64,000 bases of DNA from an uncultured Pseudohongiella sp. (GTDB lineage: Bacteria > Pseudomonadota > Gammaproteobacteria > Pseudomonadales > Pseudohongiellaceae), in the NCBI GenBank assembly GCA_965115845.1, contig OZ220475.1, positions 1,496,368-1,560,367 on the forward strand. Reading direction: 5' to 3'. The position numbers were made by a program, and so were the translations under genes. How positions within the stretch are numbered: position 1 is the stretch's first letter; every line of letters begins with the position of its first letter. Below the pieces are notes generated by a model that was not told the origin of the DNA, did not search any database, and was given only the letters and a program-made list of their open reading frames with translations. Positions 21,942-41,449 of the stretch are shown piece after piece.

Positions 21942-21985
21942 CCCCGCAAAGCGGAACCCCAGGCCGGGGGTTCCGCTTTGCGGGG
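21942..21985. terminator. Strong GC-rich hairpin between convergent genes (bidirectional terminator candidate)
   Basis: CCCCGCAAAGCGGAACCCC-aggcc-GGGGGTTCCGCTTTGCGGGG: a 19-bp perfect stem, 30 nt after the ACAD stop and 50 nt after the stop of the 22036 gene. There is no clear U-tract. Confidence 0.6.
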
Positions 21986-22035
21986 AACGCCGATCAGAGC
22001 AGCGTTCCGGTTGGAGGCGGTGAGCCGCCGAGCCG

Positions 22036-25000
22036 TCAGAGGATGAAATCATCCGCGGTCAAGCTGCCCGGTTTCAATGAACCATCATTATTGAGCATAT
22101 AGCCGTCAATCTCTTCTTCGGTTCTTCCCGCTAGCCCGATGGCCATGTCGGTCTCCTTGTCGAAATCGCCGTTTCCATTGATGTCGACCAATATCCAGAG
22201 AAAATGCGCGAATTGCTCATGCGAGCCACGCGATATTCCGATTTGGTTGTCCACGTAGGTGTCTTCTTTGGTTTTGATAGCCACGATAGTGTGCTGGCCA
22301 AATGTATGGCCGCCCTTATCGTTGACAGCTTTGAAAACCCCTTTCGCTTTTGCCTCGTTTTCATATAGATAGTTCGACAGATTATTGTTATGGGTTATGT
22401 GTTTAATCTCCTTTCCCCCTACCTTTATCGCCAAGTCAAGAGCGCTGAGGTCGATCTTGTCGGCATACGGTTTTAAGGTGCTGCCGCTGCCGCCGGACGA
22501 AACGAAGTTGAAGATGACATCCATGCCTGTCGGATTATCTGCATTGCTGCCCGTAAATGCGACTTGAGAATCGGATGCCTTTTCGTAAACGAACGTGTCC
22601 CTCTCAGATTCAGTTCCGTCACTTTCTCTTGCTGGATGGAAGACGCCGCCCGTCAACTCGTCCCCGCCGGCACCGCCCGCGATTCTGTCCTTGCCCTTGC
22701 CGCCGGCGATAATATCGTCGCCGCCGTAGCCCCACAACTTGTCGTCGCCGCCGCCGTTGTACACGATGATGTCGCCGCCGCCGTCGGAGCCGTGAATTTC
22801 CATGTCGTTTTCAAAGGTGACGCCGTCGCTTCCATAGGTGGGAGCCTCGGAATCGCCAAAAGTGTTGCCGGTCCTCAATGACAATCCGCCGGTGTTGTCG
22901 CGGGCGTCTATCATGTCCAGATCGCTGGTTTTGCCGCTGGTTTCGCCGCCGCCGTTGCCGGACAGATAGAATCCGGCGTTGCCGGTAATTGTCAGCGTTT
23001 CGAGGCCCTCGCCCTCAAGATGGGAAATCTCATGCAGGTAATGCGAAGCCTTCAAATCCGATTTCCCGACGACAACGCTGGAATCCATGGTCAACTCCTC
23101 GATGTCCTCGTCCAAAACGAGCTTCGTGCTCGTCAAGCCCAGATGCGTTATGGTGGAAGGGTCGAGTTCTTTATTCCTTGTGGGGTCTGCGGTGCTGATG
23201 ACGACATCTTTATTGAACGGCACTTTTTCGCCCGAGACCGTTGTGCCGGCGCCGTCGGCGGCAACTCCATAGCTTTTCAAGACGAGACTGGTTTCGGCAT
23301 CGTCGGCGTCTTTTTCCAGCATATAGCTTACATCGAAGTAATATTCATCGCTGCTTGATGATCTTTTGGCTTCGATGGCGAGACCCGACGCGGACTCCCC
23401 GACATTCTCGAACTTGATCGCGGGCGCGGTGCCGGACGTCACGCCTTTGGTCACCGTCAGCTTATGCAGCATGAGTTCCTCGAGATCGTACTTACCGGCA
23501 GCGGCGGACTTGTCGGCCTCCACCGTCAGGGTTGTCTTTTCAAAATTCATGAAGACATCGTCGTCGACATTCTTCAATTGGCTCGCCTTGTTCGCCGTCA
23601 GCGTCAGCGTGTCCTCGCCCGCGCCGCCGTCGACCCGGCTCCTGGCGCTGACGACGACGCCGGCGCCGATCGTGAACATGTCGTCGCCTTCGCCCAGCTC
23701 CGCCTTCAGGCCGTCCTTATGGAATTCCGTCGCCGCGACATCGTCCTTGCCCGAACCGCCCATGTAGCTCTCGACGCTTTTGCCGAGCCTGCTCACCTTG
23801 ACATCGCCGGTCGCCTCGCTCGCGTCGATGCTCTTCAGCGTCGCGGATATGACGATCGGGTCGGCCTCGGTCGGGTTGACCGCCGGCTTGAACTTGGTCG
23901 CGTCCAGCATCAGGTTGCCGGCGCCGGAAACGGAGACCGTCTCGATCTCGTCCGAAGCCAGGCGGATGTTGGAGTCGCCCTTCACCTCGATCGCCAGATC
24001 CTCGATGCCCTTGAGGCACAACTTGCCGTGCTCGCTCGCTGTGGAATACAGGCCGAACTTGTCGACCATCGCCGTCAGCGATGTCGGGTCGTCGCCCTTG
24101 ACATCGTTCTGCACGAGCAGGGTGGTGTTGGTGTTGGCGAGAGAGATATCCGTGATCGCCGTCGAGTAGATGTGCACCGGAACCGTGTCTGCGCTCGCTG
24201 TGATTTGATCTGCGGTGACCGTTGTGCCATCTATTTTGTCGTCCGTCTTGAACTTGCCTCGTTTGTCGGGCGTGCCCAGGCCGTCGTGCACGTCGTCGAG
24301 CGTCACGCTCTCGACCGTCGCGGAAGGCGCGTCCTCCTTGCCCACGTCGACGGTCTTGCCGCCTTCGACCATGATCGAAGTCGTCGTATCCGTGTCGTAG
24401 AGGCCCACATCCGCCATCTTGCTCACGCCTTCAAGCTTGACCGCGGCGGCGTTCATGATCTCGACCGTCGTATCCTTGTCGTCGTCGCCCAGGGATTTGG
24501 ACATGATGTCCGCGCCGCCGGCATCCAGTTCGACATCTCCCTCGACATCGCTCAGGACGACCTCCTTCAGGCCTTCCCAGCCGCTCAAGTCCGCCTCGAA
24601 GTCGCCGCCGCTGTCGACCGTCAGCGTCTCGACGTTCATCACGCTCGCCCCGGAAGAGACGCTGACATTGTCGTCGGAGCCGCTGGAAGAAAGCTCCAGC
24701 GTGTCCATGCCCTCGCCGCCGTCGAGCCGGTCCACGCCGGTCAGGGTCTTCTCGGTGGCGACGAAAGTGTCGTCGCCCAGGGTGCCGTCGAGCCGGTCGA
24801 CACCCGTGGTCAATTCAAAGCTCTTGCCGGGACGCCGCATCATGTCGATGGCTTCCTTCGCAGTATCGACGCTGTCACCGTCGCCGGTCACGCCGCCGAG
24901 CACGCTCGAGGAAGCACCTTCCCAGCGTTTCTCCACGGTGTAATAGGTCGCCACCTGCACCTTGTTGGCGAACATCATGGCGAGGGCGCCGAAATCGCCG

Positions 25001-25389
25001 TAGGCGGGATGGCTTTCCCCCTGCATGCGGATCTCGAACAATTGCCGCACAGCCAGCAAGCCCATCTCGCCCCGGCCCAGGCCGCCGTTGAGCAGGCCCG
25101 TCGCCAGGGCCAGCACTTCCGCCGACGGCGCTTCGCCGAGCGCCGCGGTCAGAAAATCCCGGGCGAACTCCGCGTTCGTGATGAAAAAGGGATACATGGA
25201 CGTGAAGGCGCTCGAGGCGGCGATGTGATTCGCCACCTCCAGCAGGGCCATTTCCGGGCTCATGCCCTTGTCCACGCTTGCGTTGTAGACACCGTACCAT
25301 TCGTTGAGCAGCTCGGTGCCCGGGGCCTTGCCCAGCATGGCCACCGACAGGCCGATTATCGTATCTCTGGTTTGCGCTGTTACCGCCAA
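22036..25389 (-). CDS. RsaA-like S-layer/RTX protein, predicted type I secretion substrate (paralog 1); the start codon shown is TTG without SD
   Basis: 1117 aa. The N-terminus (M)AVTAQTRDTIIGLSVAMLGKAPG and TTGVDRLDGTLGDDTFVA blocks resemble RsaA-type S-layer proteins (from memory). Ca-binding nonapeptides GGGDDKLWGYGGDDIIAGGKGKDRIAGGAGGDELTGG. The C-terminal DTFVYEKASDS...DVIFNF...ADKIDLS matches the T1SS C-terminal target pattern. The protein is acidic and Cys-poor. Confidence 0.8.
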   Translation of the reverse strand: MAVTAQTRDTIIGLSVAMLGKAPGTELLNEWYGVYNASVDKGMSPEMALLEVANHIAASSAFTSMYPFFITNAEFARDFLTAALGEAPSAEVLALATGLLNGGLGRGEMGLLAVRQLFEIRMQGESHPAYGDFGALAMMFANKVQVATYYTVEKRWEGASSSVLGGVTGDGDSVDTAKEAIDMMRRPGKSFELTTGVDRLDGTLGDDTFVATEKTLTGVDRLDGGEGMDTLELSSSGSDDNVSVSSGASVMNVETLTVDSGGDFEADLSGWEGLKEVVLSDVEGDVELDAGGADIMSKSLGDDDKDTTVEIMNAAAVKLEGVSKMADVGLYDTDTTTSIMVEGGKTVDVGKEDAPSATVESVTLDDVHDGLGTPDKRGKFKTDDKIDGTTVTADQITASADTVPVHIYSTAITDISLANTNTTLLVQNDVKGDDPTSLTAMVDKFGLYSTASEHGKLCLKGIEDLAIEVKGDSNIRLASDEIETVSVSGAGNLMLDATKFKPAVNPTEADPIVISATLKSIDASEATGDVKVSRLGKSVESYMGGSGKDDVAATEFHKDGLKAELGEGDDMFTIGAGVVVSARSRVDGGAGEDTLTLTANKASQLKNVDDDVFMNFEKTTLTVEADKSAAAGKYDLEELMLHKLTVTKGVTSGTAPAIKFENVGESASGLAIEAKRSSSSDEYYFDVSYMLEKDADDAETSLVLKSYGVAADGAGTTVSGEKVPFNKDVVISTADPTRNKELDPSTITHLGLTSTKLVLDEDIEELTMDSSVVVGKSDLKASHYLHEISHLEGEGLETLTITGNAGFYLSGNGGGETSGKTSDLDMIDARDNTGGLSLRTGNTFGDSEAPTYGSDGVTFENDMEIHGSDGGGDIIVYNGGGDDKLWGYGGDDIIAGGKGKDRIAGGAGGDELTGGVFHPARESDGTESERDTFVYEKASDSQVAFTGSNADNPTGMDVIFNFVSSGGSGSTLKPYADKIDLSALDLAIKVGGKEIKHITHNNNLSNYLYENEAKAKGVFKAVNDKGGHTFGQHTIVAIKTKEDTYVDNQIGISRGSHEQFAHFLWILVDINGNGDFDKETDMAIGLAGRTEEEIDGYMLNNDGSLKPGSLTADDFIL

Positions 25390-26036
25390 TCAGAACTTGT
25401 TGATATGCCTGCGTATTTGCCGGATTCCCGCGGGCCGGCCGCTGAATCGCCGCGCGAACATGAACGGGAACTTCCGGCCCGCGGAGCCGTCGGCCGGGGC
25501 AGCCTCGCGGCACTCCGTCGAATAATTTTTCGGGGCAGCGACATCGCGTTCTGCGGGCAGCGACACCGCGCGGCGGACCGAAACGCGGCCGCGAAAAAGG
25601 CGCGCATCGCGCGAATCCCTCTCCGGAAACGCGCGCGGCGGCCCGACGGCCGAATCGCCCGCCGTCCCGGCTCGGCGGGTCGCGGGAAAACCAAACTGCT
25701 TGCGGCGGTGCAAGAAATTTGTCGGCAACTATCTGATTTGCAAGTAATAAAATAAGCCGAAGCTCGGCGCTCGACGGCTTTCTCGAAAGCGCTCCCTCGG
25801 CCTGCGAGATGTCTCGCGTTCACTTCCAGGCCGGGGCCGAGGCGGGCCGCGCAACCGGCCGGAACGCGTCGCGGCTGGGCGCAATACCGGCGTTTCGCGG
25901 CCGCTTGGGCGGCCAAAAAATTTCGATAACTTGTGATCCCGGTCACATGCGCGCGGCGCGGGTACTGTCGTACAATATCGCCATGCGAAACCCTTCCCCA
26001 ATTTTACAGGAGCACTCCCAATGGCGGTAACAGCGC
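25374..26036. promoter_or_regulatory. Predicted invertible promoter/start-codon segment (inverton 1), bounded by 15-nt perfect inverted repeats, apparently in OFF orientation
   Basis: Left arm GCGCTGTTACCGCCA (25374-25388) is the reverse complement of right arm TGGCGGTAACAGCGC (26022-36). The left arm is codons 1-6 of the 22036-25389 gene. The right arm is preceded, inside the segment, by a promoter, AGGAG and ATG that point away from the gene. Confidence 0.55.
25932..25976 (+). promoter_or_regulatory. CRP/Vfr-type palindrome plus -10 box inside inverton 1 (class II-like promoter reading toward the right arm)
   Basis: TGTGA-tcccgg-TCACA at 25932-25947. After a 23-nt gap comes TACAAT at 25971-25976. 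AGGAG at 26008-26012 and ATG at 26021. Confidence 0.5.
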
Positions 26037-26164
26037 TTACCGCAAATTGGTTTGCCCGGGCTGCCGGCGGCGATGCCGGACAATGCGCCGGGCCGAAAAG
26101 TCAGGAGAAAAGGGAACAGGCTTCATATTCGCCGGCGCCGGGAACGGCATTCCTCTTGATGTGA
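26021..26164 (+). CDS. 47-codon read-out ORF created by the current inverton orientation (MAVTALTANWFARAAGG...); probably not a functional product
   Basis: AGGAG-N8-ATG. The first five residues, MAVTA, match the S-layer-like gene because they are encoded by the inverted repeat. The ORF is too short for the ORF track and runs toward a convergent gene. Confidence 0.3.
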   Translation: MAVTALTANWFARAAGGDAGQCAGPKSQEKREQASYSPAPGTAFLLM

Positions 26165-26269
26165 AATCAGCGTCGATGGCGGAAGAAAGCAATCCGGTGT
26201 CGCAGGCAGGCGGGTTTTGATGCGGATACATCCGCGGTCATGACCAGAAGCCGGGCCGAGACACTCGTC

Positions 26270-26368
26270 AAACCGGATTCGACGGCGCAAGCCATTGAAT
26301 TCGGGAGCAGGACAAGACCGCGCTCTGGTTCTGCGGCAATTGAACAATTCCACGAATGGAATTGTTCA
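26270..26368 (-). repeat. Modular intergenic repeat, reverse orientation, degenerate (C-B-A)
   Basis: ccggattcgacggcgcaagccattgaattcggg, then agcaggacaagaccgcgctctggttctgcggcaat, then tgaacaattccacgaatggaattgttca. Confidence 0.7.
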
Positions 26369-26376
26369 GCGAATGC

Positions 26377-29722: not shown

Positions 29723-29969
29723 GAGCGCACCGCCTCGACCGGCAGTCCCGGGCGGGAAAATAACCCTTGTCCCGCCGCTTGCGCAAGCGTTCCGGAGCCG
29801 TTGCGCCGGTCCAGATAACCATGAGACCGGATCGCCGTCTCGACAACGGCCGGTTCGGACGGATGCTCGCGCCGCACATCCCGGAGCAGACGCCTGACCG
29901 CAGCGCGGCGCATCCTCATTATTCAGGGGATGCGGCCGTACGACCGGTATTTTCATCGCCTCGAACAGC

Positions 29970-29998
29970 AAAACCCCCGACCGAAGCCGGGGGTTTTT
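29970..29998 (-). terminator. Rho-independent terminator candidate downstream of S-layer-like paralog 2
   Basis: AAAACCCCCG-accgaagc-CGGGGGTTTTT. On the minus strand the stem is followed by TTTTG. It lies 55 nt after the stop at 30053. Confidence 0.6.
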
Positions 29999-30052
29999 GG
30001 GTCTGGGAACACCGAATGACCGGGTTCCGGTTACGACCGGCGAAGCGCCGGG

Positions 30053-33000
30053 TCAGATGAAATCCCCTCCTTGCAAATCACCGGTGCCGCTGTAGGGCTC
30101 CAGCGCCAGCAGCGCAATAGCCATATCAGTGGTGGCGTCGAAATCACCGTCCCCATCTACATCGACAAGAACCCAGGTCACACCCACTGTACCCGTACCC
30201 TCAGCTGAATTACCGATCTTTCGGAAGTCGACGCTCTCCGCGGTAGTCTTGATAGTGGCAACGGTGTTTTTTTGCGGAAACGAATTGCCATCCGCTGGCG
30301 TTTCGAAGGCGCCGGCAAGCTTACCTGAAGTCAGGTATTCCTTTAGCGATGTCTTTCCATCAACAGTCGCATCCCTGACCTGTCCATTCAAGTCCACTAC
30401 ACCGGAAAGATCGATCTTGTCTTCCCCGCTCCTGAAACCAATGATTCTGTCAAAACCAGACGCCGGATCCCCTGCCTGATTGAATTTGATTCGAGAGTCG
30501 GATGCATGTTTGTAAATGAAGGTATCTTTTGCCTCGTCAACACCAGCCGCATAGGTCCCCCCCAAGTAGGAATTGCCAGAATCACCAAAAGACGCAAACT
30601 GAAAGTAAATGTTTGGCTCGTTGTTCAAATTGATGAGCCACAACCAAACTGAACGCGGAATTAATACATCTCCCCCGGCACCGCCGGTAAGCATGTCTTC
30701 TCCCTTGCCGCCAGCCAGCACATCATCTCCCCCGCCACCTTTCAGCTCGGTTTTCATTTCGTGGCCATTGTTGGTCCCATTAAGATTTGCTACCACCCAA
30801 TCATTGACCGGACTACCCTCAACTACCAGTTTCTCCGACGATCCGCTCTTTGCTGCTCTCAGCAAAGCAAGCCCTCCAGAACTTTCTCGCGCATCCACCA
30901 ATTCCAGGGATTGCAGTCCAGCCTTGTCGTAATCCCAAGCTCTGTTTTTCCTGGCTATGGTTGTGTTTATGAAGGTTTTGGCTTCGCCAGTGACTTTGAT
31001 TTCCTCAATCCCATCGCCCTGCCTGACGACAACCCTGTTGACGTAGTCCCCGGCCTTGGGGCGGTTATCGGCAACCGTTGAAATGACTTTCGCCGTGGAG
31101 CGCACGACCAGTTCCTCGATGTCCTTGTCCAAAGTGAGGTCCAATGCCGTCATCTTTACGTTATGCTTTACACCGAAATCCCCTTTCTCGTCCTTCGTGC
31201 CGCCGTCGGTGTGCAGATGCAGCATCAACGAGTCGTCGTCGCCGCCGTCCTCCAGCATGTAGCTCACCACAGCGGTCGTGGCCTGCGCCTTGGTCTCCTG
31301 CGGCTTGCTTTCGTCGTCGGGCTTCGGCTTTTTGCTCGAAACCGCCAGACCGGTGCCGGACATCAGGTTCTTGAACGTGACGCCGCCGGTGCCGGTGCCG
31401 CCGGTCACCTTCAGGTTGTCGATGTCGAGCTCCTTGACATCGTAGGTTCCCGAGCCTTCGCCCGCTTCCAGTGTGATGGTCTCGAAGCCCGTGTAGGCGT
31501 CTCCGGCCCCCTTGAGGTTGGCACCGGTCTTTTCCTTCAACACCAGCGTGTCCATGCCCGCGCCGCCGTCTATCCGGCTCTTGCCGGCCTTGACGTTGGC
31601 GACGGTGAACATGTCGTCGCCGGCGCCGAGGTTCGCCGTCAAGCCGTCCTTCGCGAACGCCGCCACGCTGACTTCGTCCTTGCCCGCGCTGCCCATGTAG
31701 CTCGTGACGCTCGCGCCCAGATTGCTCAACTTGACGGCGCCGCTAGCCTCGCTTGCGTCGACCGTCTTCAGTTTCTTCAGCCCCATCGCGTCCAGCGTCG
31801 TCTTGCCGGAGCCGGACAAGGTCAGTTTCTCCAGCGTCTCGGACGGCTTGACATCGGCCGCTTTCTCCGCCACCGCCGGCGCGAATTTGGTCGCGGACAG
31901 CGTCAGGTCGCCGGCGCCGGAAACGGCGACCGTCTTGATCTGGTCCGAAGCCAGGCGAATGCTGGAATCGCCCTTCACCTCGATCATCAGGTCTTCGATG
32001 CCCTTGAGGCACAACTTGCCGTGCCCGTTGGCCGCGTTGCCGAACCGGTCGACCATGGCCGTCAGCGACATCATGTCCTTGGCGGCGTTCTCCACCAGCA
32101 AGGTGGTGTTGGTGTTGCGCAGGTCGACGGACTCGATCGCCTTCGAGTAGATGTGCACCGGAACCCTGTCCTTGTTGTTGACCGCGGCTGTGTCGCCTGC
32201 GGCCGGCGTGTCGGTGCCGTAGCGCTTGCCGTCGTCGCCCATGCCGTCGTGTACGCCGTCGAGCGTCACGCTCCTGACCGTCTCCGAATGCGCGGTCGAC
32301 TTGCCCACCTCGACACCCATGCCGCCTTCGACCATGACCGAGGTCGTCGTGTCCGTGCCGAAGATATTCACCTGCGCGCGGGCGTTCACGTACTCGAGGT
32401 TGACAGAGGCGGTGTTCACGATCTCTATTGTCGTATCCTTGTCGTCGTCGCCCAGGGATTCGGACACGACGTCCGCGCCGCCGGCATCCAGTTCGACATC
32501 TCCCGCAACGTCCAGCTCGACCGTCGCGAGGCCCGTCCAGCCGCTAAGGTCCGCATCGAAGTCGCCGCCGCTGTCGACCGTCAGCGTCTCGACGTGCATG
32601 ACGCTCGCTCCGGAAGAGATATTGACATCGTCGTCGGAGCCGCTGGAAGAAAGCTCCAGCGTGTCCATGCCCTCGCCGCCGTCGATCCGGTCCACCCCGG
32701 TCAGGGTCTTCTCGGTGGCGACGAAGGTGTCGTCGCCCAGGGTGCCGTCGAGCCGGTCGACGCCCGCGGTCAACTCGAAGCTCTTGCCGGGACGCCGCAT
32801 CATGTCGATGGCTTCCTTGGCCGCGGTCACGCTGTCGCCGTCGCCGGTCACGCCGCCGAGCACGCTCGCAGAGTCGCCTTCCCAGCGCCTGGTAACGGTG
32901 TAGTACGTGGCCACTTCCACCTTGTTGGCGAACATCATGGCGATGGCGCCGAAATCGCCGTAGGCGGGGTGGCTTTCTCCCTGCATGCGAATCTCGAACA

Positions 33001-33349
33001 ACTGCCGCACGGCCAGCAGACCCATCTCGCCCCGGCCCATGCCGCCGTCGAGCAGGTCCGTCGCCAGGGCCAACACTTCAGCCGACGGCGCTTCGCCCAG
33101 GGCCGCGGTCAGGAATTCCGTCGCGAACTCCCTATTCGTGATGAAGAAGGGATACATGGACGTGAAAGCGCTCGAGGCGGCGATGTGATTCGCCAACTCC
33201 AGCAGGGCGTCTTCCGGGCTCATGCCCTTGCCGACGCTCGCGTTGTAGACGCCGTACCATTCATTGAGCAATGCGGTGCCCGGGGCCTTGCCCAGCATGG
33301 CCACCGACAGGCCGATTATCGTATCTCTGGTTTGTGCAGTTACCGCCAA
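30053..33349 (-). CDS. RsaA-like S-layer/RTX protein, predicted type I secretion substrate (paralog 2); the start codon shown is TTG without SD
   Basis: 1098 aa. The first ~290 aa are nearly collinear with paralog 1, and the centre and C-terminus diverge. RTX block GGGGDDVLAGGKGEDMLTGGAGGDVL. C-terminal DTFIYKHASDS...DRIIGFRSGEDKIDLS. Confidence 0.8.
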   Translation of the reverse strand: MAVTAQTRDTIIGLSVAMLGKAPGTALLNEWYGVYNASVGKGMSPEDALLELANHIAASSAFTSMYPFFITNREFATEFLTAALGEAPSAEVLALATDLLDGGMGRGEMGLLAVRQLFEIRMQGESHPAYGDFGAIAMMFANKVEVATYYTVTRRWEGDSASVLGGVTGDGDSVTAAKEAIDMMRRPGKSFELTAGVDRLDGTLGDDTFVATEKTLTGVDRIDGGEGMDTLELSSSGSDDDVNISSGASVMHVETLTVDSGGDFDADLSGWTGLATVELDVAGDVELDAGGADVVSESLGDDDKDTTIEIVNTASVNLEYVNARAQVNIFGTDTTTSVMVEGGMGVEVGKSTAHSETVRSVTLDGVHDGMGDDGKRYGTDTPAAGDTAAVNNKDRVPVHIYSKAIESVDLRNTNTTLLVENAAKDMMSLTAMVDRFGNAANGHGKLCLKGIEDLMIEVKGDSSIRLASDQIKTVAVSGAGDLTLSATKFAPAVAEKAADVKPSETLEKLTLSGSGKTTLDAMGLKKLKTVDASEASGAVKLSNLGASVTSYMGSAGKDEVSVAAFAKDGLTANLGAGDDMFTVANVKAGKSRIDGGAGMDTLVLKEKTGANLKGAGDAYTGFETITLEAGEGSGTYDVKELDIDNLKVTGGTGTGGVTFKNLMSGTGLAVSSKKPKPDDESKPQETKAQATTAVVSYMLEDGGDDDSLMLHLHTDGGTKDEKGDFGVKHNVKMTALDLTLDKDIEELVVRSTAKVISTVADNRPKAGDYVNRVVVRQGDGIEEIKVTGEAKTFINTTIARKNRAWDYDKAGLQSLELVDARESSGGLALLRAAKSGSSEKLVVEGSPVNDWVVANLNGTNNGHEMKTELKGGGGDDVLAGGKGEDMLTGGAGGDVLIPRSVWLWLINLNNEPNIYFQFASFGDSGNSYLGGTYAAGVDEAKDTFIYKHASDSRIKFNQAGDPASGFDRIIGFRSGEDKIDLSGVVDLNGQVRDATVDGKTSLKEYLTSGKLAGAFETPADGNSFPQKNTVATIKTTAESVDFRKIGNSAEGTGTVGVTWVLVDVDGDGDFDATTDMAIALLALEPYSGTGDLQGGDFI

Positions 33350-33995
33350 TCAGAACTTGTTGATATGCCTGCGTATTTGCCGGATTCGCGCGAACCGGCC
33401 GCTGAATCGCCGCGCAAACATGAACGGGAACTTCCGGCCAGCGGAGCCGTCGGCCGGGGCGGTCTCGCAGCGCTCGCCGAATAATTCTCCGGAGCAGCAA
33501 CACCACGTTTTCGGGACGGCGACACCGCGCGGCGGACCGAAACGCGGCCGCGAAAAAGGCGCGCATCGCGCGAATCTCTCCCCGGAAATGCGCGCGGCGA
33601 CCCGGTCGCCGAATCGTCCGCCGTCCCGGTTCGGCGGATCGCGGGAACACCGCCCCGCCTGCGGCGGCGCGAGAGATTTGCCGGCAATTGTTTGATTTAT
33701 CAGTAAATAAATAAGCCGGCGCACGGCGCTCGACGGCTTTCCCGGAAGCGTTCTGTCGACCTTCGAAGAGGCTCGCGATCATTTCCAAGCCGCCGCCGAG
33801 GCGGGCCGCGCAAGCGGCCGGAATGCGCCGCGGTCGGACGGAGCATCGGCGTTTCGCGGTTGCCTGGGCGGGCGAAAAATTTCGATAACTTGTGATCCGG
33901 GTCACATGCGCGCGGAGCGAATGTTGCTATATAATGCCGTTCTGCAACATTTTGTCTTTAATTTCAGGAGCGTCCCAAATGGCGGTAACTGCACA
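33333..33995. promoter_or_regulatory. Predicted invertible promoter/start-codon segment (inverton 2), bounded by 16-nt perfect inverted repeats, apparently in OFF orientation
   Basis: Left arm TGTGCAGTTACCGCCA (33333-33348) is the reverse complement of right arm TGGCGGTAACTGCACA (33980-33995). The interior is homologous to inverton 1 and has the same layout. Confidence 0.55.
33891..33935 (+). promoter_or_regulatory. CRP/Vfr-type palindrome plus -10 box inside inverton 2
   Basis: TGTGA-tccggg-TCACA at 33891-33906. After a 23-nt gap comes TATAAT at 33930-33935. AGGAG at 33966-33970 and ATG at 33979. Confidence 0.5.
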
Positions 33996-34077
33996 TACCG
34001 CGAACTGGTTTGCGCAGCCCGTCGCCAGCGATGCCGAAGGAATCGACGGGCAGTCCGACGGTCCGAATCCTCGATAG
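33979..34077 (+). CDS. 32-codon read-out ORF created by the current inverton orientation (MAVTAHTANWFAQPVASDAEG...); probably not a functional product
   Basis: AGGAG-N8-ATG. It shares MAVTA with the S-layer-like gene through the inverted repeat. It is the in-frame tail of track ORF 33892-34077. Confidence 0.3.
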   Translation: MAVTAHTANWFAQPVASDAEGIDGQSDGPNPR

Positions 34078-34175
34078 CAAGATGTCCGGCGTCAACGCGC
34101 CGACCGCCGGTCCGATGGCGGGGGAAAGCGCGACGGCCGCAACCGCGCGGCAGCTACCGGATCCGCGGCCGACGG

Positions 34176-36482
34176 TCAGGCCTTGGCCGCGCGGATGATG
34201 TTCCATAGCGCCCGGGGCGTGGCGGGCATGTCGACATGATCGACGCCGTGCTCGCGCAAGGCGTCGGCGATCGCGTTCATGATCGTCGGCGGCGCGCCGA
34301 TGGCGCCGGCCTCCCCCGCGCCCTTGATGCCGAGCGGATTGGTCTTGCAGGGAACCAGATGAAGCGAGCAGTCGATATCGACGCAGTCGTCGGCCCTGGG
34401 CATGGCATAGTCCATGAAACTCGCCGACAGCAGTTGGCCGGAAACCGGGTCGTAATGGCAGTCTTCCAGCAACGCCTGGCCGAGACCCTGGACGACCCCT
34501 CCATGGATCTGGCCCAGCAGGAGATCGGGATTGATCGCCTTGCCGAAATCATCGACCACGGTATAACGGACAAGGCCGCTTTCGCCGGTGTCCCGGTCGA
34601 TTTCGACTTCCGCGACATGGACGCCGTTCGGGTAAGTCGCCTGCCGCGGGGCGAAGCCGTCGGTTTCGTCGAAAGCGGAGCCGCCGTCCGCCGGCGCCGC
34701 CCGGGCGGCGACTTGAGCGAAATCCAGGCCGCGGTCGGTGCCGGCGATGCGGAACCGTCCGCCGTCGAAGCGGATATCCGCGACCGCCGCCTCGAGCATG
34801 TCCGCGGCTTTCCCGCTCGCGGTCCGGATCAGTTTCCTCGCGCAGGCGGCGATCGCCGCTCCGCCCACCGGCACGGATCTTGAGCCCGCGGTGCCGCCGC
34901 CGCTGGCGATGATGTCGGAGTCGCCCTGGACAACCTCGATCCGCTCCGGATCGATGCCGAGGTATTCGCACAGAATCTGGCGAAATGCCGTTTCGTGTCC
35001 CTGGCCGTTGGACTGGGTGCCGATATGCAGGCTGACGCGGCCATCGGCCGCGACGATCAGCCGGGCCTGTTCCGGCGCGCCGCCGGCGCAACGCTCGATA
35101 TAGCTGGCAAGGCCGATGCCGCGCAATTTCCCCCGTTGCCGGGCTTCTTCCCTTCTTGCTTCGAATCCGCGCCAGTCGGATCGTTCCAGCGCCAGTTCGA
35201 GCAGCTGCGGGAATTCGCCGCTGTCGTAATGCGAGCCCAGCACGGTCCGGTACGGCATCTCGCCGGCGCCGATCAGATTGCGGCGGCGGATTTCCGCGGG
35301 CCCGACGCCGAGCCGGCGCGCCGCCACGTCCACCAGCCGCTCGATGGCGTAAATCGCCTCGGGCCTGCCGGCGCCGCGATAAGCGTCGACCGGCGCGGTA
35401 TTGGTGAAAACTCCCTGCACGCGGACATATGCCGCCGGAATCCGATAACAGCCGGTCAACATCGGAACCCCCGCCGCGGTCGCGACGAACGGCGCCAACG
35501 GGGACAGACTGGAACCCAGATTGGCGATAGTGGCGACGCGCAGGCCGGTGAAGCGGAATTCTTCATCGAAACCGGCTTCGAGCCGGGTCACATGATCGCG
35601 GCCGTGACTGTCGCTGAGAAAGGACTCGCTCCGCTCGGCTACCCATTTTACCGGCCGGCCGAGTTCCCGCGCGGCATGCAGGATCGCCGCGTATTCCGGA
35701 TAGCAGAATATCTTGCTGCCGAAACCGCCGCCGACATCCTTGCAGATCACGCGGATATCCTCTTCGGCGCAATCGAAAACTCCGCGCAGCAACATCTGCT
35801 TGATGTAATGCACGCCCTGGCAGGAAACGCGCAAGACCATGCGGCCGTTTTCGAGCGAGGCGATCGCTCCGCGAGGCTCCATCGAATTCGGCGCCACCCG
35901 ATTGTTGACCAATTCGAGTTCGACCCGATGCGCGGCGCCGGCAAGCGCGGCATCGGCGGCATCGGCATCTCCCGCGCGCCAGTCGAAACAGCGGTTGTTG
36001 CGCGCCCCGTCCCATAATCGGGGCGCGTCTGCGGCCATCGCCGCGCCGGTCGCGCTGACCGCGGGCAAGGGCTCGTAATCGACGAGGATCGCCTCGGCGG
36101 CATCGAGCGCCTGCGCCCTGGTCTCGGCCGCGACCAACGCCACCGGTTCGCCCGCGTGGCGCACGCGGCCGAGCGCCAGCGCCGGTCGCGGCGGCTTGCA
36201 GCAGGGCGAGCCGTCCGCGTTCGACAATTCCGTCAGGCAAGGCAGGTCGCCGACGCCGGCGGCGCGCAAATCCGCGCCCGCGAACACGCCGAGGACGCCG
36301 TCGGCGGCGCGGGCGGCCGACAGGTCGATTCCAGTTATGCGGGCGTGGGCCCAGGGCGAACGCAAGAACACGCCGACCGTTTGCTCCGGCAGGTTCTCGT
36401 CGTCGAGATACGAGCCGGCGCCGACAAGAAAGCGGCGATCCTCGAAGCGCGCCGCCGGTTGGCCGATACCGAATTTTTTCAT
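34176..36482 (-). CDS. Xanthine dehydrogenase/aldehyde oxidase family molybdopterin-binding subunit (CoxL-like)
   Basis: Start at MKKFGIGQPAARFEDRRFLVGAGSYLDD (36482, AAGGAAA upstream). 768 aa with family blocks GGGFGSK, AYRGAGRPE and KGAGEAGAIGAPP. Confidence 0.85.
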   Translation of the reverse strand: MKKFGIGQPAARFEDRRFLVGAGSYLDDENLPEQTVGVFLRSPWAHARITGIDLSAARAADGVLGVFAGADLRAAGVGDLPCLTELSNADGSPCCKPPRPALALGRVRHAGEPVALVAAETRAQALDAAEAILVDYEPLPAVSATGAAMAADAPRLWDGARNNRCFDWRAGDADAADAALAGAAHRVELELVNNRVAPNSMEPRGAIASLENGRMVLRVSCQGVHYIKQMLLRGVFDCAEEDIRVICKDVGGGFGSKIFCYPEYAAILHAARELGRPVKWVAERSESFLSDSHGRDHVTRLEAGFDEEFRFTGLRVATIANLGSSLSPLAPFVATAAGVPMLTGCYRIPAAYVRVQGVFTNTAPVDAYRGAGRPEAIYAIERLVDVAARRLGVGPAEIRRRNLIGAGEMPYRTVLGSHYDSGEFPQLLELALERSDWRGFEARREEARQRGKLRGIGLASYIERCAGGAPEQARLIVAADGRVSLHIGTQSNGQGHETAFRQILCEYLGIDPERIEVVQGDSDIIASGGGTAGSRSVPVGGAAIAACARKLIRTASGKAADMLEAAVADIRFDGGRFRIAGTDRGLDFAQVAARAAPADGGSAFDETDGFAPRQATYPNGVHVAEVEIDRDTGESGLVRYTVVDDFGKAINPDLLLGQIHGGVVQGLGQALLEDCHYDPVSGQLLSASFMDYAMPRADDCVDIDCSLHLVPCKTNPLGIKGAGEAGAIGAPPTIMNAIADALREHGVDHVDMPATPRALWNIIRAAKA

Positions 36483-36705
36483 GGGATTTCCTTGTCGCGA
36501 ACGCGCCGCGCCGGAGTCCGGCGCGGCATTCCATCGATGCGCGGCGGACATCGCGCGAAAATCCTTCCCGCGAAAACTTTCGCCGCGGCGGCCGGACCGG
36601 CGCCGGTCCCGGGGAGCGCGCCTGTTTTCGCCGCCGATCTTGCCGGAATGGCGCTTCATTGTGTTAGGCTGCTTCGCAACCAGTCAATAGCAGACTGGAT
36701 TTTCC

Positions 36706-36795
36706 CTGAATAATTCCATCCATGGAATTATTCGGCGCCGCAAAGCCGGGATACGGTTTTGCAATGCTCCCGGATTCAACGGCATGCGGCGCGGG
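36706..36795 (+). repeat. Modular intergenic repeat, degenerate copy (A, weak B, C)
   Basis: ctGAATAATTCCATCCATGGAATTATTCggcgccgcaaagccgggatacggttttgcaatgctcccggattcaacggcatgcggcgcggg. Confidence 0.7.
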
Positions 36796-39013: not shown

Positions 39014-39128
39014 AGGAAAGCCCTGACCAAGTCAGAGCTTTCCTGCGGTACAGGCCCGTGGTACAGGAGAGTGCCGCCGGGTTCGACGGCGCGAGCCGCC
39101 AAATCCGGGAGCAAGACAAAACCACATT
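39014..39128 (-). repeat. Modular intergenic repeat, reverse orientation, truncated (D-C-half B, lacks A)
   Basis: GGAAAGCCCTGAccaagTCAGAGCTTTCC...gggttcgacggcgcgagccgccaaatccgggagcaagacaaaaccaca. Confidence 0.7.
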
Positions 39129-39338
39129 CCGGGAGACGAGGAAAACTTGCCAAGGCAACACGATTGAGACAGTATCGAAATTCCTGCAATCAAAATTCTC
39201 CAACCCATCGCAAGGTCCAGTCATATCCGGATTTCAGGCTCATTTCCTTGCTGGAAATCGCTGGCCGTCAACCGCCTCGACAACGAGAAACCGGCGGTGT
39301 CCCGGATGTGGCGGGCGACCGATACGGGAGCGATTCCG

Positions 39339-39950
39339 ATGGAACTTGAAACGACTGCGAAGGTGCCGGTCGAAAGGCTCCGCCTCGATCCGTTGAATCC
39401 AAGGCTGATCGGCGGGGATGAGAAAGCGTCCGACGAGGCGATTATCGCCCGGCTCTATCGCGCCGCTGAACTCGACGAGTTGCTCCAGTCGATCACTGCC
39501 AACGGTTACATGGACATCGAGCCGCTGGTCGTGATGGGTGATCTCGACTCGGAAAGCGGCGCCTTGACGGTGCTGGAAGGAAATCGGCGGCTTGCCGCAC
39601 TGCGTCTGCTGCGAGAGCCGGATTTGGTTCAGAGGATTCGGGACTCGGAGGGGGTTCGCATTTCAGTGCCGCGTATCGACGACCTGCGCCGAGCCGCCAC
39701 CCTCGACGCGGTGTCGGTGTATCCCGTCGCCAATCGCGAGCGCGCGCGGTCGTTCATCGGCTTCAAGCACATCAACGGCCCGGCGAAGTGGGACGCGTAC
39801 GCGAAGGCGCGGTTTGCGGCGGAATGGTACAGGTCGGGGCGAGCCGAGGGCATTGGTCTGGCGGCTATCGCCAGAGCCATCGGCGACAAGCATGACACCA
39901 TCAAGCGAATGGTTTCCGCCATCTACGTAGTTGGAGCAGGCCAAGGATGA
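39339..39950 (+). pseudogene. ParB/Srx N-terminal domain protein, apparently truncated or frameshifted at its 3' end
   Basis: MELETTAKVPVERLRLDPLNPRLIGG...VLEGNRRLAALRLL is the ParB-like GxxR box. The ORF stops at ...AIYVVGAGQG. A different frame continues as LEQAKDDFALWEMYF for about 35 codons and then stops. Confidence 0.5.
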
Positions 39951-40114
39951 TTTCGCGTTATGGGAAATGTACTTCACCGCCTTCGGGTGCCTCGCCGCGT
40001 CGCGGAAGCGGCGCAGCTCGCGAAGGAACCCGGAACGATGATCGAAGAATACGGCCAGCTGGCGGAAGCCGCGCGGTGGGTCGCGGACTATCGGGGTCGA
40101 GCGAGGGTGGCGGC

Positions 40115-41206
40115 ATGAGACATCGATTCCATTCGATCTGTCCTTATTTCGCCATGTTTCCAGAGACTTTCGTCGAGAAGCATCTCGCGGCGAGCCAGCA
40201 CCGGGGCGTTGTGTTCGACCCGTTCTGCGGGCGCGGGACGGCGGTTTTCCAGGCGCTCTTGCAGGATCGGGCCGCGGCCGGCTGCGATATGAACCCGGTT
40301 GCGGTCTGCATCTCCGGCGCGAAATGCGACCCGCCCGCGCAGCCCGAGGTCGAAACGCGGCTGGCGGAACTGCGCGACGGAGTCCGCTTCGGGGAAAATC
40401 GCGAATGGGACGGCGCCCATGCGGACTTCTTCGAACACTGCTTTCACCGCGACACGCTGTCGCAAGTGCTCCATTTGAGGTCGGCGCTCGACTGGCGCCG
40501 CCGCAGGGAAGACCGGTTCATCGCCGCGCTTTGCCTGGGTGCGCTGCATGGCGAGTCCCACCGGTCGCCCAATTGCTTCAGCAACCGCATGCCTCGCGCC
40601 ATCAGCACGAAACCGGACTATTCGGTGCGATGGTGGCGAAAGAACGGGTATGCGCCGCCGCCGCGCAATGTGTTCGATATCCTCGAACGAATGATCGAGT
40701 ATCGGTTTCGGTCGCGCCCTCCGCAACGAACAGGCAGCGTGGTCGAGTCGGATGCGCGACAAGTCGGCGACGTATTTCCGGGATTGAAGGGTCGCGTGAC
40801 CGACATCATCACCTCCCCGCCCTACCTCGATACAACGAATTATCGCGAGGATCAGTGGCTGCGCCTGTGGTTCCTCGGTTACAGGCCCATGGCTGCGCGC
40901 GACCGCGCCGACGACCGGCACTACAGCAAGGAAATATACTGGGAATTCTTGCGGGCATCCTGGAGAGGACTCGCTCCGTTGCTGGCGAAACAGGCCAGAC
41001 TGGTTGTGCGCATCGGCGGACGGCGCCTGAACAAGGCCGAGTTGCGAGAAGGACTCGCGCGGTCGCTGGAAGCAGGCCTGGACCGCAGCGCGCGGCTCGT
41101 CGATACCGGCATCAGTTCGAGAATCGGCAACACGCAGGCAAACGCATTTCGAGGCGCGAAGGCATCGCAACTCATGGAACATGATTTCACATTCAGTATC
41201 CTTTGA
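40115..41206 (+). CDS. SAM-dependent DNA methyltransferase (amino-MTase; motif I before SPPY), orphan
   Basis: Start MRHRFHSICPYF at 40115 with GAGGGTGG upstream. VFDPFCGRGTAVF is a motif I-like SAM site. DIITSPPYLDTTNY is motif IV, (S/D/N)PP(Y/F). No nuclease gene is adjacent. The stop codon lies inside the next repeat copy. Confidence 0.7.
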   Translation: MRHRFHSICPYFAMFPETFVEKHLAASQHRGVVFDPFCGRGTAVFQALLQDRAAAGCDMNPVAVCISGAKCDPPAQPEVETRLAELRDGVRFGENREWDGAHADFFEHCFHRDTLSQVLHLRSALDWRRRREDRFIAALCLGALHGESHRSPNCFSNRMPRAISTKPDYSVRWWRKNGYAPPPRNVFDILERMIEYRFRSRPPQRTGSVVESDARQVGDVFPGLKGRVTDIITSPPYLDTTNYREDQWLRLWFLGYRPMAARDRADDRHYSKEIYWEFLRASWRGLAPLLAKQARLVVRIGGRRLNKAELREGLARSLEAGLDRSARLVDTGISSRIGNTQANAFRGAKASQLMEHDFTFSIL

Positions 41207-41357
41207 ATAATTCCATCCATGGTTATTCATTGCCGCAAGACGAGCGCGATTTTGTCTTGCTCCCGGATTCGGCGGCTCGCGCCGTCGAATCCGGCAGCGC
41301 TCTTCTTGTACCGCGGGCATGCGCCGCAGGGAAGCTCTGACTTGATCAGAGCTTCCT
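41204..41357 (+). repeat. Modular intergenic repeat, full-length copy (A-B-C-D)
   Basis: tGAATAATTCCATCCATGGTTATTCattgccgcaagacgagcgcgattttgtcttgctcccggattcggcggctcgcgccgtcgaatccgg...cgcagGGAAGCTCTGActtgaTCAGAGCTTCC. Confidence 0.8.
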
Positions 41358-41449
41358 TTGCTGCCGGAATTCGCCTTCGGCGATAAAAATCCCCGCAAGG
41401 AGTTCGAGGCCGGTTGCCGCTCCCGTCCGCCTGACGGATAATCCGGGCC

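What the first reader, a model, noticed from the sequence alone, without database searches (positions are those of the whole stretch)
33329..33999. Inverton 2: the same switch architecture in front of S-layer-like gene 2, also in the predicted OFF orientation
Seen in sequence:
- A 16-nt perfect inverted repeat, TGTGCAGTTACCGCCA (33333-33348) against TGGCGGTAACTGCACA (33980-33995), extending to 19 of 21 matches.
- Left side: ...caacaagttctgaTTGGCGGTAACTGCACAAACC. This is a TTG start with no SD for the 1098-aa gene.
- Right side, inside the segment: TGTGA-N6-TCACA (33891-33906), TATAAT (33930-33935), AGGAG (33966-33970) and ATG (33979).
- These currently drive only a 32-codon ORF, MAVTAHTANWFAQ..., which ends before a convergent oxidoreductase gene.

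The interior is homologous to inverton 1 along its length. Two independent switches would allow four expression states across two antigenically different surface proteins.
Basis: partly seen in the sequence, partly recalled or inferred. Interest (0 to 1): 0.9.

Follow-up and report, generated by a model that had tools for sequence, protein, structure and literature searches.

The report
Flipped promoter switch before surface-protein gene
A 650-bp DNA segment carrying this surface-protein gene's own promoter, ribosome-binding site and ATG sits backwards in front of the gene between short inverted repeats, so it is very probably an on/off inversion switch of a well-known kind, caught in the off state, although no flipped copy could be found.

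Summary

Support for a switch:
- The enclosed promoter is homologous to the one that directly drives this gene family in about ten relatives. Flipping the segment in silico restores that canonical arrangement.
- The two window loci carry different IR variants, each mirrored in both of its own arms.
- Both "off" genes are under purifying selection (dN/dS 0.24).
- A third copy exists in an independent assembly.
- Sister lineages appear to phase-vary the same family by other means (poly-G promoter spacers, long-IR gene pairs).

Missing:
- No molecule in the opposite orientation was found; all three retrievable copies are OFF.
- No recombinase is encoded in the 64 kb window.
- The source genome is not retrievable.
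- "S-layer" is plausible (acidic RTX protein) but unproven.
- The genome holds at least four paralogs, not two.

Verdict: a probable promoter inverton (about 0.65), a new member of a known kind, of moderate interest.

The parts
33329..33348 (.). Left (gene-proximal) inverted repeat of switch 2. On the minus strand it is the last two bases of the start codon plus codons 2-7 of the gene (tTGGCGGTAACTGCACAAACC).
33349..33979 (.). Putative invertible segment (631 nt between the arms). It is non-coding and 82% identical to the segment at locus 1 (113 mismatches in 631 nt).
   Evidence: One search shows no codon periodicity (24/26/24). Searches show no Rfam match and no RNA-structure signal.
33980..33999 (.). 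Right (distal) inverted repeat of switch 2, TGGCGGTAACTGCACATACC, preceded by the A that completes an ATG.
33891..33906 (+). CRP/FNR-type palindrome TGTGATCCGGGTCACA, about 42-44 nt upstream of the inferred transcription start.
   Evidence: only two exact matches in the window, 0.01 expected; the same motif is conserved upstream of the homologous genes in L001-L003, L005B, L006-L010, L015 and L016.
33930..33935 (+). -10 hexamer TATAAT. In relatives a TATGCT -10-like hexamer lies at about the same distance (21-23 nt) downstream of the palindrome.
   Evidence: The global alignment does not place the two hexamers in the same column. The generic sigma-70 scan found no -35/-10 pair, as expected for an activator-dependent promoter.
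33966..33981 (+). Shine-Dalgarno AGGAG (33966-33970), an 8-nt spacer and ATG (33979-33981).
   Evidence: One search shows it collinear with the AAGGAG-N7-8-ATG of relatives.
33979..34077 (+). 32-codon ORF (MAVTAHTANWFAQ...) currently fed by the promoter. It is conserved with locus 1 only for about 12 codons. It is annotated as a gene in the public record (P0274).
34000..34050 (.). Outer flank belonging to the duplicated unit. Homology among locus 1, locus 2 and L014 ends about 40-70 nt outside the right IR.
30053..33349 (-). Controlled gene 2: a 1098-aa acidic RTX protein (pI 4.5, one Cys) with a TTG start and no SD. The public annotation starts it at Met18 (P0272).
   Evidence: One search gives dN/dS 0.24 against gene 1 over codons 1-285.
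33349..33460 (.). Highly conserved interior block next to the left IR (92-97% identical between loci, including a 39-nt invariant run). Possibly a recombinase or accessory-protein binding region (inference).
33519..33576 (.). 58-nt block invariant in all three switch copies. It contains a weak terminator-like hairpin plus T-run on the minus strand (33559-33572).
   Evidence: One search shows no significant folding signal.
25369..26041 (.). Paralogous switch 1: IR arms 25369-25388 and 26022-26041 (15 nt perfect, 18/20), CRP-type site at 25932-25947, TACAAT at 25971-25976, AGGAG at 26008-26012 and ATG at 26021. Same OFF orientation.
22036..25389 (-). Controlled gene 1: a 1117-aa RTX paralog, 85-92% identical over the first 300 aa and 23-37% identical in the C-terminal part (from about residue 600).

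Best explanation
This is a promoter-inversion phase-variation switch (inverton) for a large secreted RTX surface protein, assembled in its OFF orientation.

The ~630-bp segment between the 20-nt inverted repeats carries the gene family's native activator-dependent promoter (a CRP-type site and a -10 hexamer), the Shine-Dalgarno sequence and the A of the ATG. The crossover lies within the first seven codons. Flipping the segment therefore gives the gene a promoter, an SD and an ATG all at once. In the present orientation the gene keeps only a TTG directly behind a stop codon, and the promoter fires into a short non-conserved ORF.

Inversion is presumably catalysed by a site-specific recombinase encoded elsewhere in the genome. 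The locus-specific IR cores (ACTGCACA in locus 2, ACAGCGC(A/T) in locus 1) would keep the paralogous switches from recombining with each other.

Shown: the anatomy, the homology of the promoter to the relatives' promoters, collinearity of the flipped state, IR co-variation, and purifying selection on the genes. Inferred: that inversion occurs, that it is reversible, what kind of recombinase acts, and that a CRP-type regulator gates the promoter.
For: 1. The IRs are real and rare in this window.
2. In L001-L003, L005B and L006-L010 the homologous gene is directly preceded by TGTGA-N6-TCACA, a -10, AAGGAG and ATGGCNGTNAC, with no inverted copy of the 5' end. The window segment, flipped in silico, aligns collinearly with these from about 60 nt upstream of the palindrome into the coding region.
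3. Locus 1 and locus 2 differ at two IR positions, and each difference is mirrored in that locus's other arm. My estimate of the chance probability is about 0.002, which argues for recombination between the arms since the duplication.
4. Both genes are intact and under purifying selection (dN/dS 0.24, dS 0.32) even though they lack a promoter, an SD and an ATG in this orientation. So they must be expressed at some time.
5. The non-coding interior diverges more slowly (0.205) than synonymous sites (0.317) and holds invariant blocks of 39 and 58 nt.
6. The promoter's present downstream target is not conserved among the three copies. It behaves as a parked promoter.
7. A third copy with the same geometry (20-nt arms, 631 nt apart) sits in a different flank in an independent assembly.
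8. Sister lineages show other phase-variation designs for the same family: G14, G17 and G27 tracts in the promoter spacer and ~660-nt inverted 5' regions around a single complete promoter.
9. On the same chromosome one paralog (P0122) is annotated from Met1, while the two window genes and P0123 are annotated from Met18. This would fit one ON copy, but it is a weak inference.
Against: - No sequence with the opposite orientation was found. All three retrievable copies (locus 1, locus 2, L014) are OFF.
- An exact search for the SD-ATG-IR junction in metagenome contigs found nothing, and the protein-based scans found only distant relatives.
- No tyrosine or serine recombinase is encoded anywhere in the 64 kb.
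- The source genome could not be fetched, so neither reads, nor the fourth paralog's upstream region, nor the recombinase inventory could be examined.
- The apparent 13-N8-13 core-site dyad at the right IRs is not statistically distinctive. There are 64 such dyads in the window.
- The upstream oxidoreductase gene is co-directional with the surface-protein gene, and only a weak terminator-like hairpin lies between them.
Confidence: 0.65

Rival explanations
1. This is a static rearrangement. An ancestral inversion left the promoter facing away, and the arrangement no longer flips. The window genes would be silent cassettes that serve as donors for recombination or gene conversion into one expression locus (for example P0122), or they would be expressed weakly by read-through from the co-directional upstream genes with translation from TTG or Met18.
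For: - All three copies seen have the same orientation.
- There is no recombinase in the window.
- The gene bodies are mosaic between copies: L014 is like locus 2 at the 5' end and like locus 1 further in.
- Only one paralog is annotated from Met1.
- The oxidoreductase gene upstream is on the same strand.
Against: - Silent donor cassettes would not need a complete promoter, SD and ATG kept intact between matched IRs.
- The IR arms co-vary within each locus after the duplication.
- The promoter elements are conserved between copies (CRP-type site 15/16, SD identical).
- There is an in-frame stop directly before the TTG and no SD before either TTG or Met18.
- A terminator-like element lies in the invariant block on the read-through path.
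Confidence: 0.17
2. Exchange happens between loci rather than by local flipping, as in Campylobacter fetus sap. Recombination between the right IR of one locus and the left IR of another would invert kilobases and bring a different gene body under a promoter, or homologous recombination would act through the 85-92% identical 5' regions.
For: - The right IR of locus 1 (26022) and the left IR of locus 2 (33333) are in inverted orientation 7.3 kb apart. Recombination there would place gene 2 behind promoter 1.
- A relative (L005) has a sap-like layout with ~660-nt inverted 5' regions and one complete promoter.
- The gene bodies are mosaic.
Against: - The two window genes are in tandem, not opposed.
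- The inter-locus IR cores differ at 2-3 of 16 positions, while the intra-locus arms match.
- 16-20 nt is short for RecA-type exchange (my own knowledge).
- Each gene has its own complete promoter module.
Confidence: 0.12
3. The IR arises by chance, is an assembly artefact, or belongs to a mobile element (MITE- or IS-like terminal repeats).
For: The window is rich in REP/MITE-like repeats. The units are lineage-specific insertions relative to sister species.
Against: - The left IR is the gene's own conserved N-terminal coding sequence, and the interior promoter is homologous to the relatives' native promoter.
- The same structure occurs in two window loci and in an independent assembly.
- Shuffle controls argue against chance.
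Confidence: 0.03

Closest known systems
Invertible-promoter switches (invertons) of surface structures: E. coli fimS (FimB/FimE) and the Bacteroides capsule and S-layer promoters
   Same: A short segment bounded by short inverted repeats carries the promoter. One orientation drives a surface-structure gene. Several paralogous loci each have their own switch. In Bacteroides the recombinase can act in trans from elsewhere in the genome, and one target is a phase-variable S-layer (PMC12548429, PMC10403206, PMC11602134; fimS details are from my own knowledge).
   Different: Here the IR overlaps the start codon and the first seven codons, so the SD and ATG travel with the promoter and the gene keeps only a TTG. 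The segment is longer (about 650 bp, against 314 bp for fimS). No recombinase gene is adjacent. The host is an uncultured Pseudohongiella-like gammaproteobacterium, and the target is an RTX protein. Inversion was not observed.
Ureaplasma mba/UU172 elements and Mycoplasma vsa-type inversions at repeats inside 5' coding regions
   Same: The inverted repeats lie within the 5' end of the coding sequence, so the promoter plus the 5' end is swapped between alternative downstream sequences (PMC3047005 abstract; PMC3599477).
   Different: In those systems the alternative partner is a real gene, giving alternating expression. Here it is a 32-codon ORF that is not conserved between copies. The organisms and proteins are unrelated.
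S-layer variation by inversion: Campylobacter fetus sapA homologs and Lactobacillus acidophilus slpA/slpB (my own knowledge)
   Same: Expression of a surface-layer protein is changed by inverting a promoter-bearing segment, with crossover in the conserved 5' ends of paralogous genes.
   Different: Those systems have two opposed full-length cassettes sharing one promoter on a ~6 kb segment, and C. fetus uses long homology. The window has tandem genes, each with a private ~650-bp switch and 20-nt repeats. The relative L005 resembles the sap layout much more closely.
Clostridioides difficile cwpV switch (RecV)
   Same: A phase-variable cell-wall or surface protein is controlled by a short invertible element with about 20-bp inverted repeats (PMC2784873).
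   Different: The cwpV element lies downstream of a fixed promoter and acts through transcription termination (my own knowledge). Here the promoter itself is inside the element.
Homopolymer-tract promoter-spacer phase variation (for example Neisseria porA/opc; my own knowledge; review PMC11868660)
   Same: It has the same biological outcome, and it is what the nearest non-self relatives (L015, L016) appear to use for the same gene family, with G14-G27 between the -35 and -10.
   Different: The window has no homopolymer of 9 nt or longer. Its mechanism would be inversion, not slippage.

Membership tests
Promoter inverton (site-specific invertible promoter switch) | A pair of inverted repeats flanking a short (about 0.1-1 kb) segment next to a gene | tested here: met
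   20-nt arms, 19/20 complementary, 631 nt apart, abutting the start codon. Such repeats are rare in shuffles.
Promoter inverton (site-specific invertible promoter switch) | A promoter inside the segment that would drive the adjacent gene in one orientation only | tested here: met
   At sequence level, the CRP-type site, TATAAT, AGGAG and ATG face away from the gene. They are homologous to, and after an in-silico flip collinear with, the promoter of the gene family in relatives. No transcription start site data are available.
Promoter inverton (site-specific invertible promoter switch) | Both orientations coexist in a population (reads or assemblies) | tested here: inconclusive
   Only three copies were retrievable and all are OFF. 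The junction search found no hits.
Promoter inverton (site-specific invertible promoter switch) | A cognate tyrosine or serine recombinase | tested here: inconclusive
   None was found in the 64-kb window with Pfam or NCBIfam. The rest of the 3.38-Mb genome could not be searched. Recombinases acting in trans are known (my own knowledge; PMC11602134 cites Mpi).
Promoter inverton (site-specific invertible promoter switch) | Evidence that the two arms recombine (concerted evolution of the IRs) | tested here: met
   Two locus-specific substitutions are mirrored in both arms of each locus. My chance estimate is about 0.002.
sap/slp-type S-layer cassette inversion | Two opposed full-length paralogous genes flanking one promoter-bearing invertible segment | tested here: not met
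   The far side of the segment has only a 32-codon ORF, and the two paralogs are in tandem on the minus strand.
sap/slp-type S-layer cassette inversion | Long conserved 5' regions acting as the inverted repeats | tested here: not met
   The repeats are 20 nt, and homology beyond them is absent. The relative L005 does meet this feature.
RTX-type S-layer protein (RsaA-like) | RTX calcium-binding nonapeptide repeats near the C-terminus | tested here: met
   PF00353 scores 23.9 bits (cut-off 23) for gene 2 and 22.3 bits for gene 1. PDB sequence matches are weak (best E = 0.012) and fall only on RTX blocks.
RTX-type S-layer protein (RsaA-like) | Type I secretion (no N-terminal signal peptide, T1SS partner genes) | tested here: inconclusive
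   T1SS ABC and MFP genes lie next to the homolog in L001 and L009. None is present in the window.
RTX-type S-layer protein (RsaA-like) | An N-terminal anchoring domain structurally related to a known S-layer protein | tested here: not met
   The AlphaFold2 model of residues 1-155 is helical with pLDDT about 70-90, but no PDB match reaches E <= 0.001. The alignment had only three sequences, so this test is weak.
RTX-type S-layer protein (RsaA-like) | Forms a two-dimensional lattice on the cell surface | not testable with these tools
   Requires microscopy or biochemistry.
Class II CRP/FNR-dependent promoter | A TGTGA-N6-TCACA palindrome centred about 41.5 nt upstream of the transcription start | tested here: inconclusive
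   The palindrome is exact and unique to the two loci, and it is conserved across the family. Its centre is about 42-44 nt upstream of the start inferred from the -10. The start site is not mapped.
Class II CRP/FNR-dependent promoter | A cognate Crp-family regulator | not tested
   A Crp-family gene and a CHASE2 cyclase lie next to the homolog in L001 and L009.
Slipped-strand (homopolymer) phase variation | A long homopolymer or short tandem repeat in the promoter spacer or the 5' coding region | tested here: not met
   The window has no homopolymer of 9 nt or longer. L015 and L016 have G14-G27 tracts.

The most novel reading that the evidence does not exclude
The genome runs a multiplexed surface-coat switchboard. 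At least four paralogous RTX surface-protein cassettes would each carry a private promoter-SD-ATG inverton. The IR cores differ between loci but match within a locus, in the way heterospecific lox or FRT spacers do. One trans-acting recombinase could then flip each locus independently without scrambling the chromosome. Expression of whichever copy is ON would be further gated by a cAMP/CRP-type signal. The switch-plus-gene unit would itself be a copy-and-insert module that has spread into housekeeping neighbourhoods.
Probability: 0.2. Interest if true: 0.65.

Novelty: new member of a known kind. Interest (0 to 1): 0.42.

Why it matters
If confirmed, this would show that an uncultured, free-living Pseudohongiella-like gammaproteobacterium stochastically switches among several antigenically different surface coats, most plausibly to escape phages or grazers. 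Phase variation has mostly been studied in host-associated bacteria.

The comparative picture is the more interesting part. The same gene family seems to have acquired on/off control at least three different ways in neighbouring lineages: an invertible promoter, poly-G promoter spacers, and long inverted 5' regions around a shared promoter. That makes it a natural system for asking why and how phase variation evolves.

Practically, the finding also flags an annotation problem. Gene callers start both window genes at Met18 and annotate the parked 32-codon ORF as a gene.

Tried and rejected
**Searches that found nothing useful**
- Exact-protein look-ups meant to retrieve the source genome or the same strain all failed: oxidoreductase, aminotransferase, YajC, the 100%-identical Tgt P0002, and P0122.
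- An exact search for the SD-ATG-IR junction in metagenome contigs returned nothing.
- The protein-pattern scan of metagenomes gave three distant loci only.
- The first homolog search was swamped by RTX words and gave one hit. The third returned nothing.
- No recombinase was found among the GC3-supported ORFs (apart from a few short or overlapping ones) and the additional unannotated ORFs of the window, using Pfam at relaxed E-values and NCBIfam.

**Ideas tested and dropped**
- Interior ORFs are not coding. Substitutions show no codon periodicity, and two 1-nt indels separate the copies.
- The interior is not a structured RNA or a known RNA family. There is no Rfam hit in either segment, and folding z-scores are near zero.
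- I noticed a loxP/FRT-like 13-N8-13 dyad at the right IRs (10/13 matches). I downgraded it because 64 such dyads occur in this GC-rich window.
- A MITE or IS origin of the repeats is rejected. The left arm is the conserved N-terminal coding sequence, and the promoter is the family's own.
- Structural support for "S-layer" failed, with no PDB fold match.
- The generic sigma-70 scan finds no -35/-10 pair on either strand of 33200-34400, so there is no evidence for an alternative promoter facing the gene.
- The remaining ~540 bp of the interior has no detectable homolog in the relatives' loci.
Full report
**1. Observation**

- The repeat finder reports arms at 33329-33348 and 33980-33999: 20 nt, 95% complementary, 631 nt apart. 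The perfect core is the 16-mer TGGCGGTAACTGCACA.
- On the minus strand the 1098-codon ORF (30053-33349) begins with TTG. An in-frame TGA lies immediately upstream, and there is no purine-rich SD.
- At the other end, on the plus strand and facing away from the gene, lie TGTGATCCGGGTCACA (33891-33906), TATAAT (33930-33935), AGGAG (33966-33970) and ATG (33979). They open a 32-codon ORF.
- A paralogous locus 7.96 kb upstream has the same layout: IR arms at 25369-25388 and 26022-26041, and gene 22036-25389(-).

The features are unlikely to be chance.
- Perfect IRs of at least 15 nt spaced 50-2000 nt occur three times in the window, against 0.5 expected.
- The CRP-type palindrome occurs only at the two loci, against 0.01 expected.

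**2. The gene and the organism**

Both large genes encode acidic (pI 4.3-4.5), one-cysteine proteins with RTX repeats near the C-terminus. They share an N-terminal region that is 85-92% identical over the first ~300 residues, and 23-37% identical in the C-terminal part (from about residue 600).

An exhaustive profile search shows the N-terminal domain defines a sizeable family: 1,165 representatives, 80 of them at E <= 1e-30. An AlphaFold2 model of the domain is helical with moderate confidence over residues 1-155. It has no significant match among solved structures, and PDB sequence matches are weak (best E = 0.012) and fall only on RTX blocks. "S-layer-like" is therefore plausible, and it is supported by T1SS genes next to the homolog in L001 and L009. 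It is not demonstrated.

Tgt is 100% identical to a protein on a 3,382,958-bp contig that could not be fetched. It is 80-87% identical to proteins of uncultured Pseudohongiella-type MAGs. The window is ordinary chromosome (secDF-yajC-tgt-prfC, T2SS, secA, lpxC, ftsZAQ).

**3. The key comparative result**

Related loci came from GTDB genomes and metagenomes. In L001-L003, L005B and L006-L010 the homologous gene is directly preceded by the same module:
- a conserved TGTGA-N6-TCACA about 120 bp before the ATG (172 bp in L006);
- a -10-like TATGCT;
- a 5' UTR;
- AAGGAG and ATGGCNGTNACNGC.

None has an inverted copy of the gene's 5' end within 5 kb. I flipped both window segments in silico. The resulting sequence aligns collinearly with these fixed arrangements, from about 60 nt upstream of the palindrome, through the SD and its spacing, into the coding region.

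So the promoter module inside the segment is the gene family's own promoter. The window state is that promoter turned around between repeats made from the first seven codons.

**4. Evidence that this is a working switch rather than a fossil**

a. IR co-variation. The two window loci differ at two positions of the IR (GTAACAGCGC against GTAACTGCAC). In each locus the same variant is present in both arms. The switch predates the duplication, because interior, arms and about 40-70 nt of outer flank are homologous. The arms must therefore have been homogenised within each locus afterwards. By my calculation, coincidence has a probability of about 0.002.

b. Purifying selection. Both genes are intact, with dN/dS 0.24 and dS 0.32 over codons 1-285. 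Yet in this orientation they have no promoter, SD or ATG.

c. A constrained interior.
- It is non-coding, with mismatches by phase of 24/26/24.
- It has no Rfam hit and no folding signal.
- It still evolves more slowly (0.205) than synonymous sites, and it contains invariant runs of 39 and 58 nt shared by all three copies.

d. No conserved target in the present orientation. The sequence currently downstream of the promoter is not conserved beyond about 12 codons among copies.

e. A third copy. L014, from ENA assembly ERZ24894574, has 20-nt arms 631 nt apart. It lies in a different outer flank and has a mosaic gene body.

**5. Family context**

The nearest non-self relatives are L015 and L016. 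They carry G17, G27 and G14 tracts exactly between a TTGA(T/C)T -35 and a (T/C)ATAGT -10 of three paralogs. These are the only long homopolymers in those loci, and this is the classic slipped-strand design.

L005 has two divergent paralogs whose 5' UTR and 5' coding regions form ~660-nt inverted repeats 7 kb apart. Only one of the two retains the CRP-type site, which resembles the C. fetus sap layout.

Repeated, independent invention of on/off devices for this family raises the prior that the window architecture is one too.

**6. What is missing**

- I found no molecule in the opposite orientation. All three retrievable copies are OFF.
- Searches for the junction and for close relatives in public contigs were empty or distant.
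- The source genome is not retrievable.
- No recombinase is encoded in the window.
- The oxidoreductase gene upstream (34176-36659) is co-directional with the surface-protein gene. Read-through is therefore a formal route to expression. The only obstacle detected is a weak terminator-like hairpin inside the 58-nt invariant block.
- The right IRs look like a 13-N8-13 core site (10/13), with the locus-specific differences falling in the 8-nt spacer. Such dyads occur about once per kb here, so I report this only as a lead.

**7. Additional facts about the genome**

- The public annotation starts both window genes at Met18 (P0272, P0273) and annotates the 32-codon ORF as a gene (P0274).
- Two more paralogs lie on the same chromosome. 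P0123 is also called from Met18. P0122 is called from Met1.
- With the same caller on the same genome, P0122 probably has a better start context, which could mean an ON copy. This is inference only.
- In two sister species the secDF-tgt-prfC-acyl-CoA-dehydrogenase-aminotransferase neighbourhood is conserved but lacks the surface-protein gene. Window 21913-26375 is therefore a 4.46-kb lineage-specific insertion of a complete switch-plus-gene unit.

**8. Mechanism proposed**

A trans-encoded site-specific recombinase exchanges strands within TGGCGGTAAC(T/A)GC(A/G)C. Inversion joins the CRP-type promoter, AGGAG, an 8-nt spacer and the A of ATG to ...TGGCGGTAACTGCACAAACCAGAGAT..., which switches the gene ON. 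The reverse event parks the promoter over a junk ORF. The mismatched cores between loci should disfavour inter-locus events. A Crp-family activator probably gates the promoter when it is ON; such a gene lies next to the homolog in L001 and L009.

The anatomy, homology and co-variation are shown. The recombination itself, its reversibility, the type of enzyme and the CRP dependence are inferred.

**9. Comparison with known systems and verdict**

Invertible promoters controlling surface structures are a well-catalogued class. One survey reports tens of thousands of candidates, including 2,673 from marine metagenomes (PMC11602134). Phase-variable S-layers are known in Bacteroides (PMC12548429). 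Inversions at repeats inside 5' coding regions are known in Ureaplasma (PMC3047005).

This locus differs in detail:
- the start codon and SD ride on the element;
- there are private switches on at least three paralogs, with locus-specific cores;
- the target is an RTX protein;
- the host is an uncultured Pseudohongiella-like bacterium.

It does not differ in kind. I rate it a probable inverton (0.65), a new member of a known kind, of moderate interest (0.42). The convergent evolution of phase variation across the family is the most attractive angle.

Noticed in passing
L015:9838-10001 and 14365-14538; L016:6508-6668: The nearest non-self relatives of the gene carry G17, G27 and G14 tracts exactly between a TTGA(T/C)T -35 and a (T/C)ATAGT -10, downstream of a TGTGACTGGAATCACA site. 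These are the only homopolymers of 10 nt or longer in those loci. This looks like slipped-strand phase variation of the same gene family.
   Followed up: partly
L005:2212-2876 and 9893-10557: Two divergent paralogs whose 5' UTR and 5' coding regions form ~660-nt inverted repeats (84-98% identical) 7 kb apart. Only copy B keeps the CRP-type site. In copy A the homology breaks exactly at the palindrome. The layout resembles Campylobacter fetus sap.
   Followed up: partly
window 21913-26375, compared with L017:3968-3992 and L018:6995-7010: Gene 1 plus switch 1 plus flank is a 4.46-kb insertion into an otherwise conserved tgt-prfC-acyl-CoA-dehydrogenase-aminotransferase neighbourhood of sister species. 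The switch-plus-gene unit behaves like a cassette that has been copied to new sites. L014 has the same unit in yet another flank.
   Followed up: partly
source chromosome (3,382,958-bp contig), outside the window: At least four paralogs are on the same chromosome. The public annotation starts both window genes (P0272, P0273) and P0123 at Met18, starts P0122 at Met1, and annotates the parked 32-codon ORF (P0274) as a gene.
   Followed up: partly
window 14277-14332, 20349-20593, 26273-26359, 36696-36791, 39014-39144, 41192-41366, 45516-45692, 46496-46650, 48814-49140, 59562-59779: An abundant family of intergenic REP/MITE-like elements, 60-150 nt long, with the palindrome GAATAATTCCATCCATGGAATTATTC and a GC-rich hairpin. 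It occurs in both orientations. One copy lies in the right flank of locus 1, and a related sequence is at the start of L014.
   Followed up: no
L001:1-6881; L009:73-6444; L007:18838-20700: In some relatives the homologous gene sits near type I secretion genes (ABC and AprE-like MFP), a Crp-family regulator and a CHASE2-domain nucleotide cyclase. This fits the conserved TGTGA-N6-TCACA site. None of these genes is in the window.
   Followed up: partly
window 33519-33576: A 58-nt GC-rich block is invariant in all three switch copies. It includes a weak minus-strand hairpin plus T-run (33559-33572) oriented toward the gene in the OFF state. Its function is unknown; it might be an insulator, a terminator or a protein-binding site.
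   Followed up: partly
window 33686-33716: An AT-rich island sits in the middle of the GC-rich segment. On the minus strand, AATCAAACAATTG fits the IHF consensus WATCAANNNNTTR as I recall it. The locus 1 copy has one mismatch. It might be a DNA-bending site, as in fimS. This was not tested statistically.
   Followed up: no
window 39297-41206: An adjacent gene pair: a small protein with weak ParB-N/HTH similarity, and a DNA methyltransferase (N6_N4_Mtase). It may be an orphan or mobile methylase module.
   Followed up: no
window 29964-30073 (-): A sub-threshold Rfam match to the Pseudomonas rnk leader (26.7 bits against a gathering score of 55, E = 0.35), just downstream of gene 2's stop. Probably chance.
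   Followed up: no
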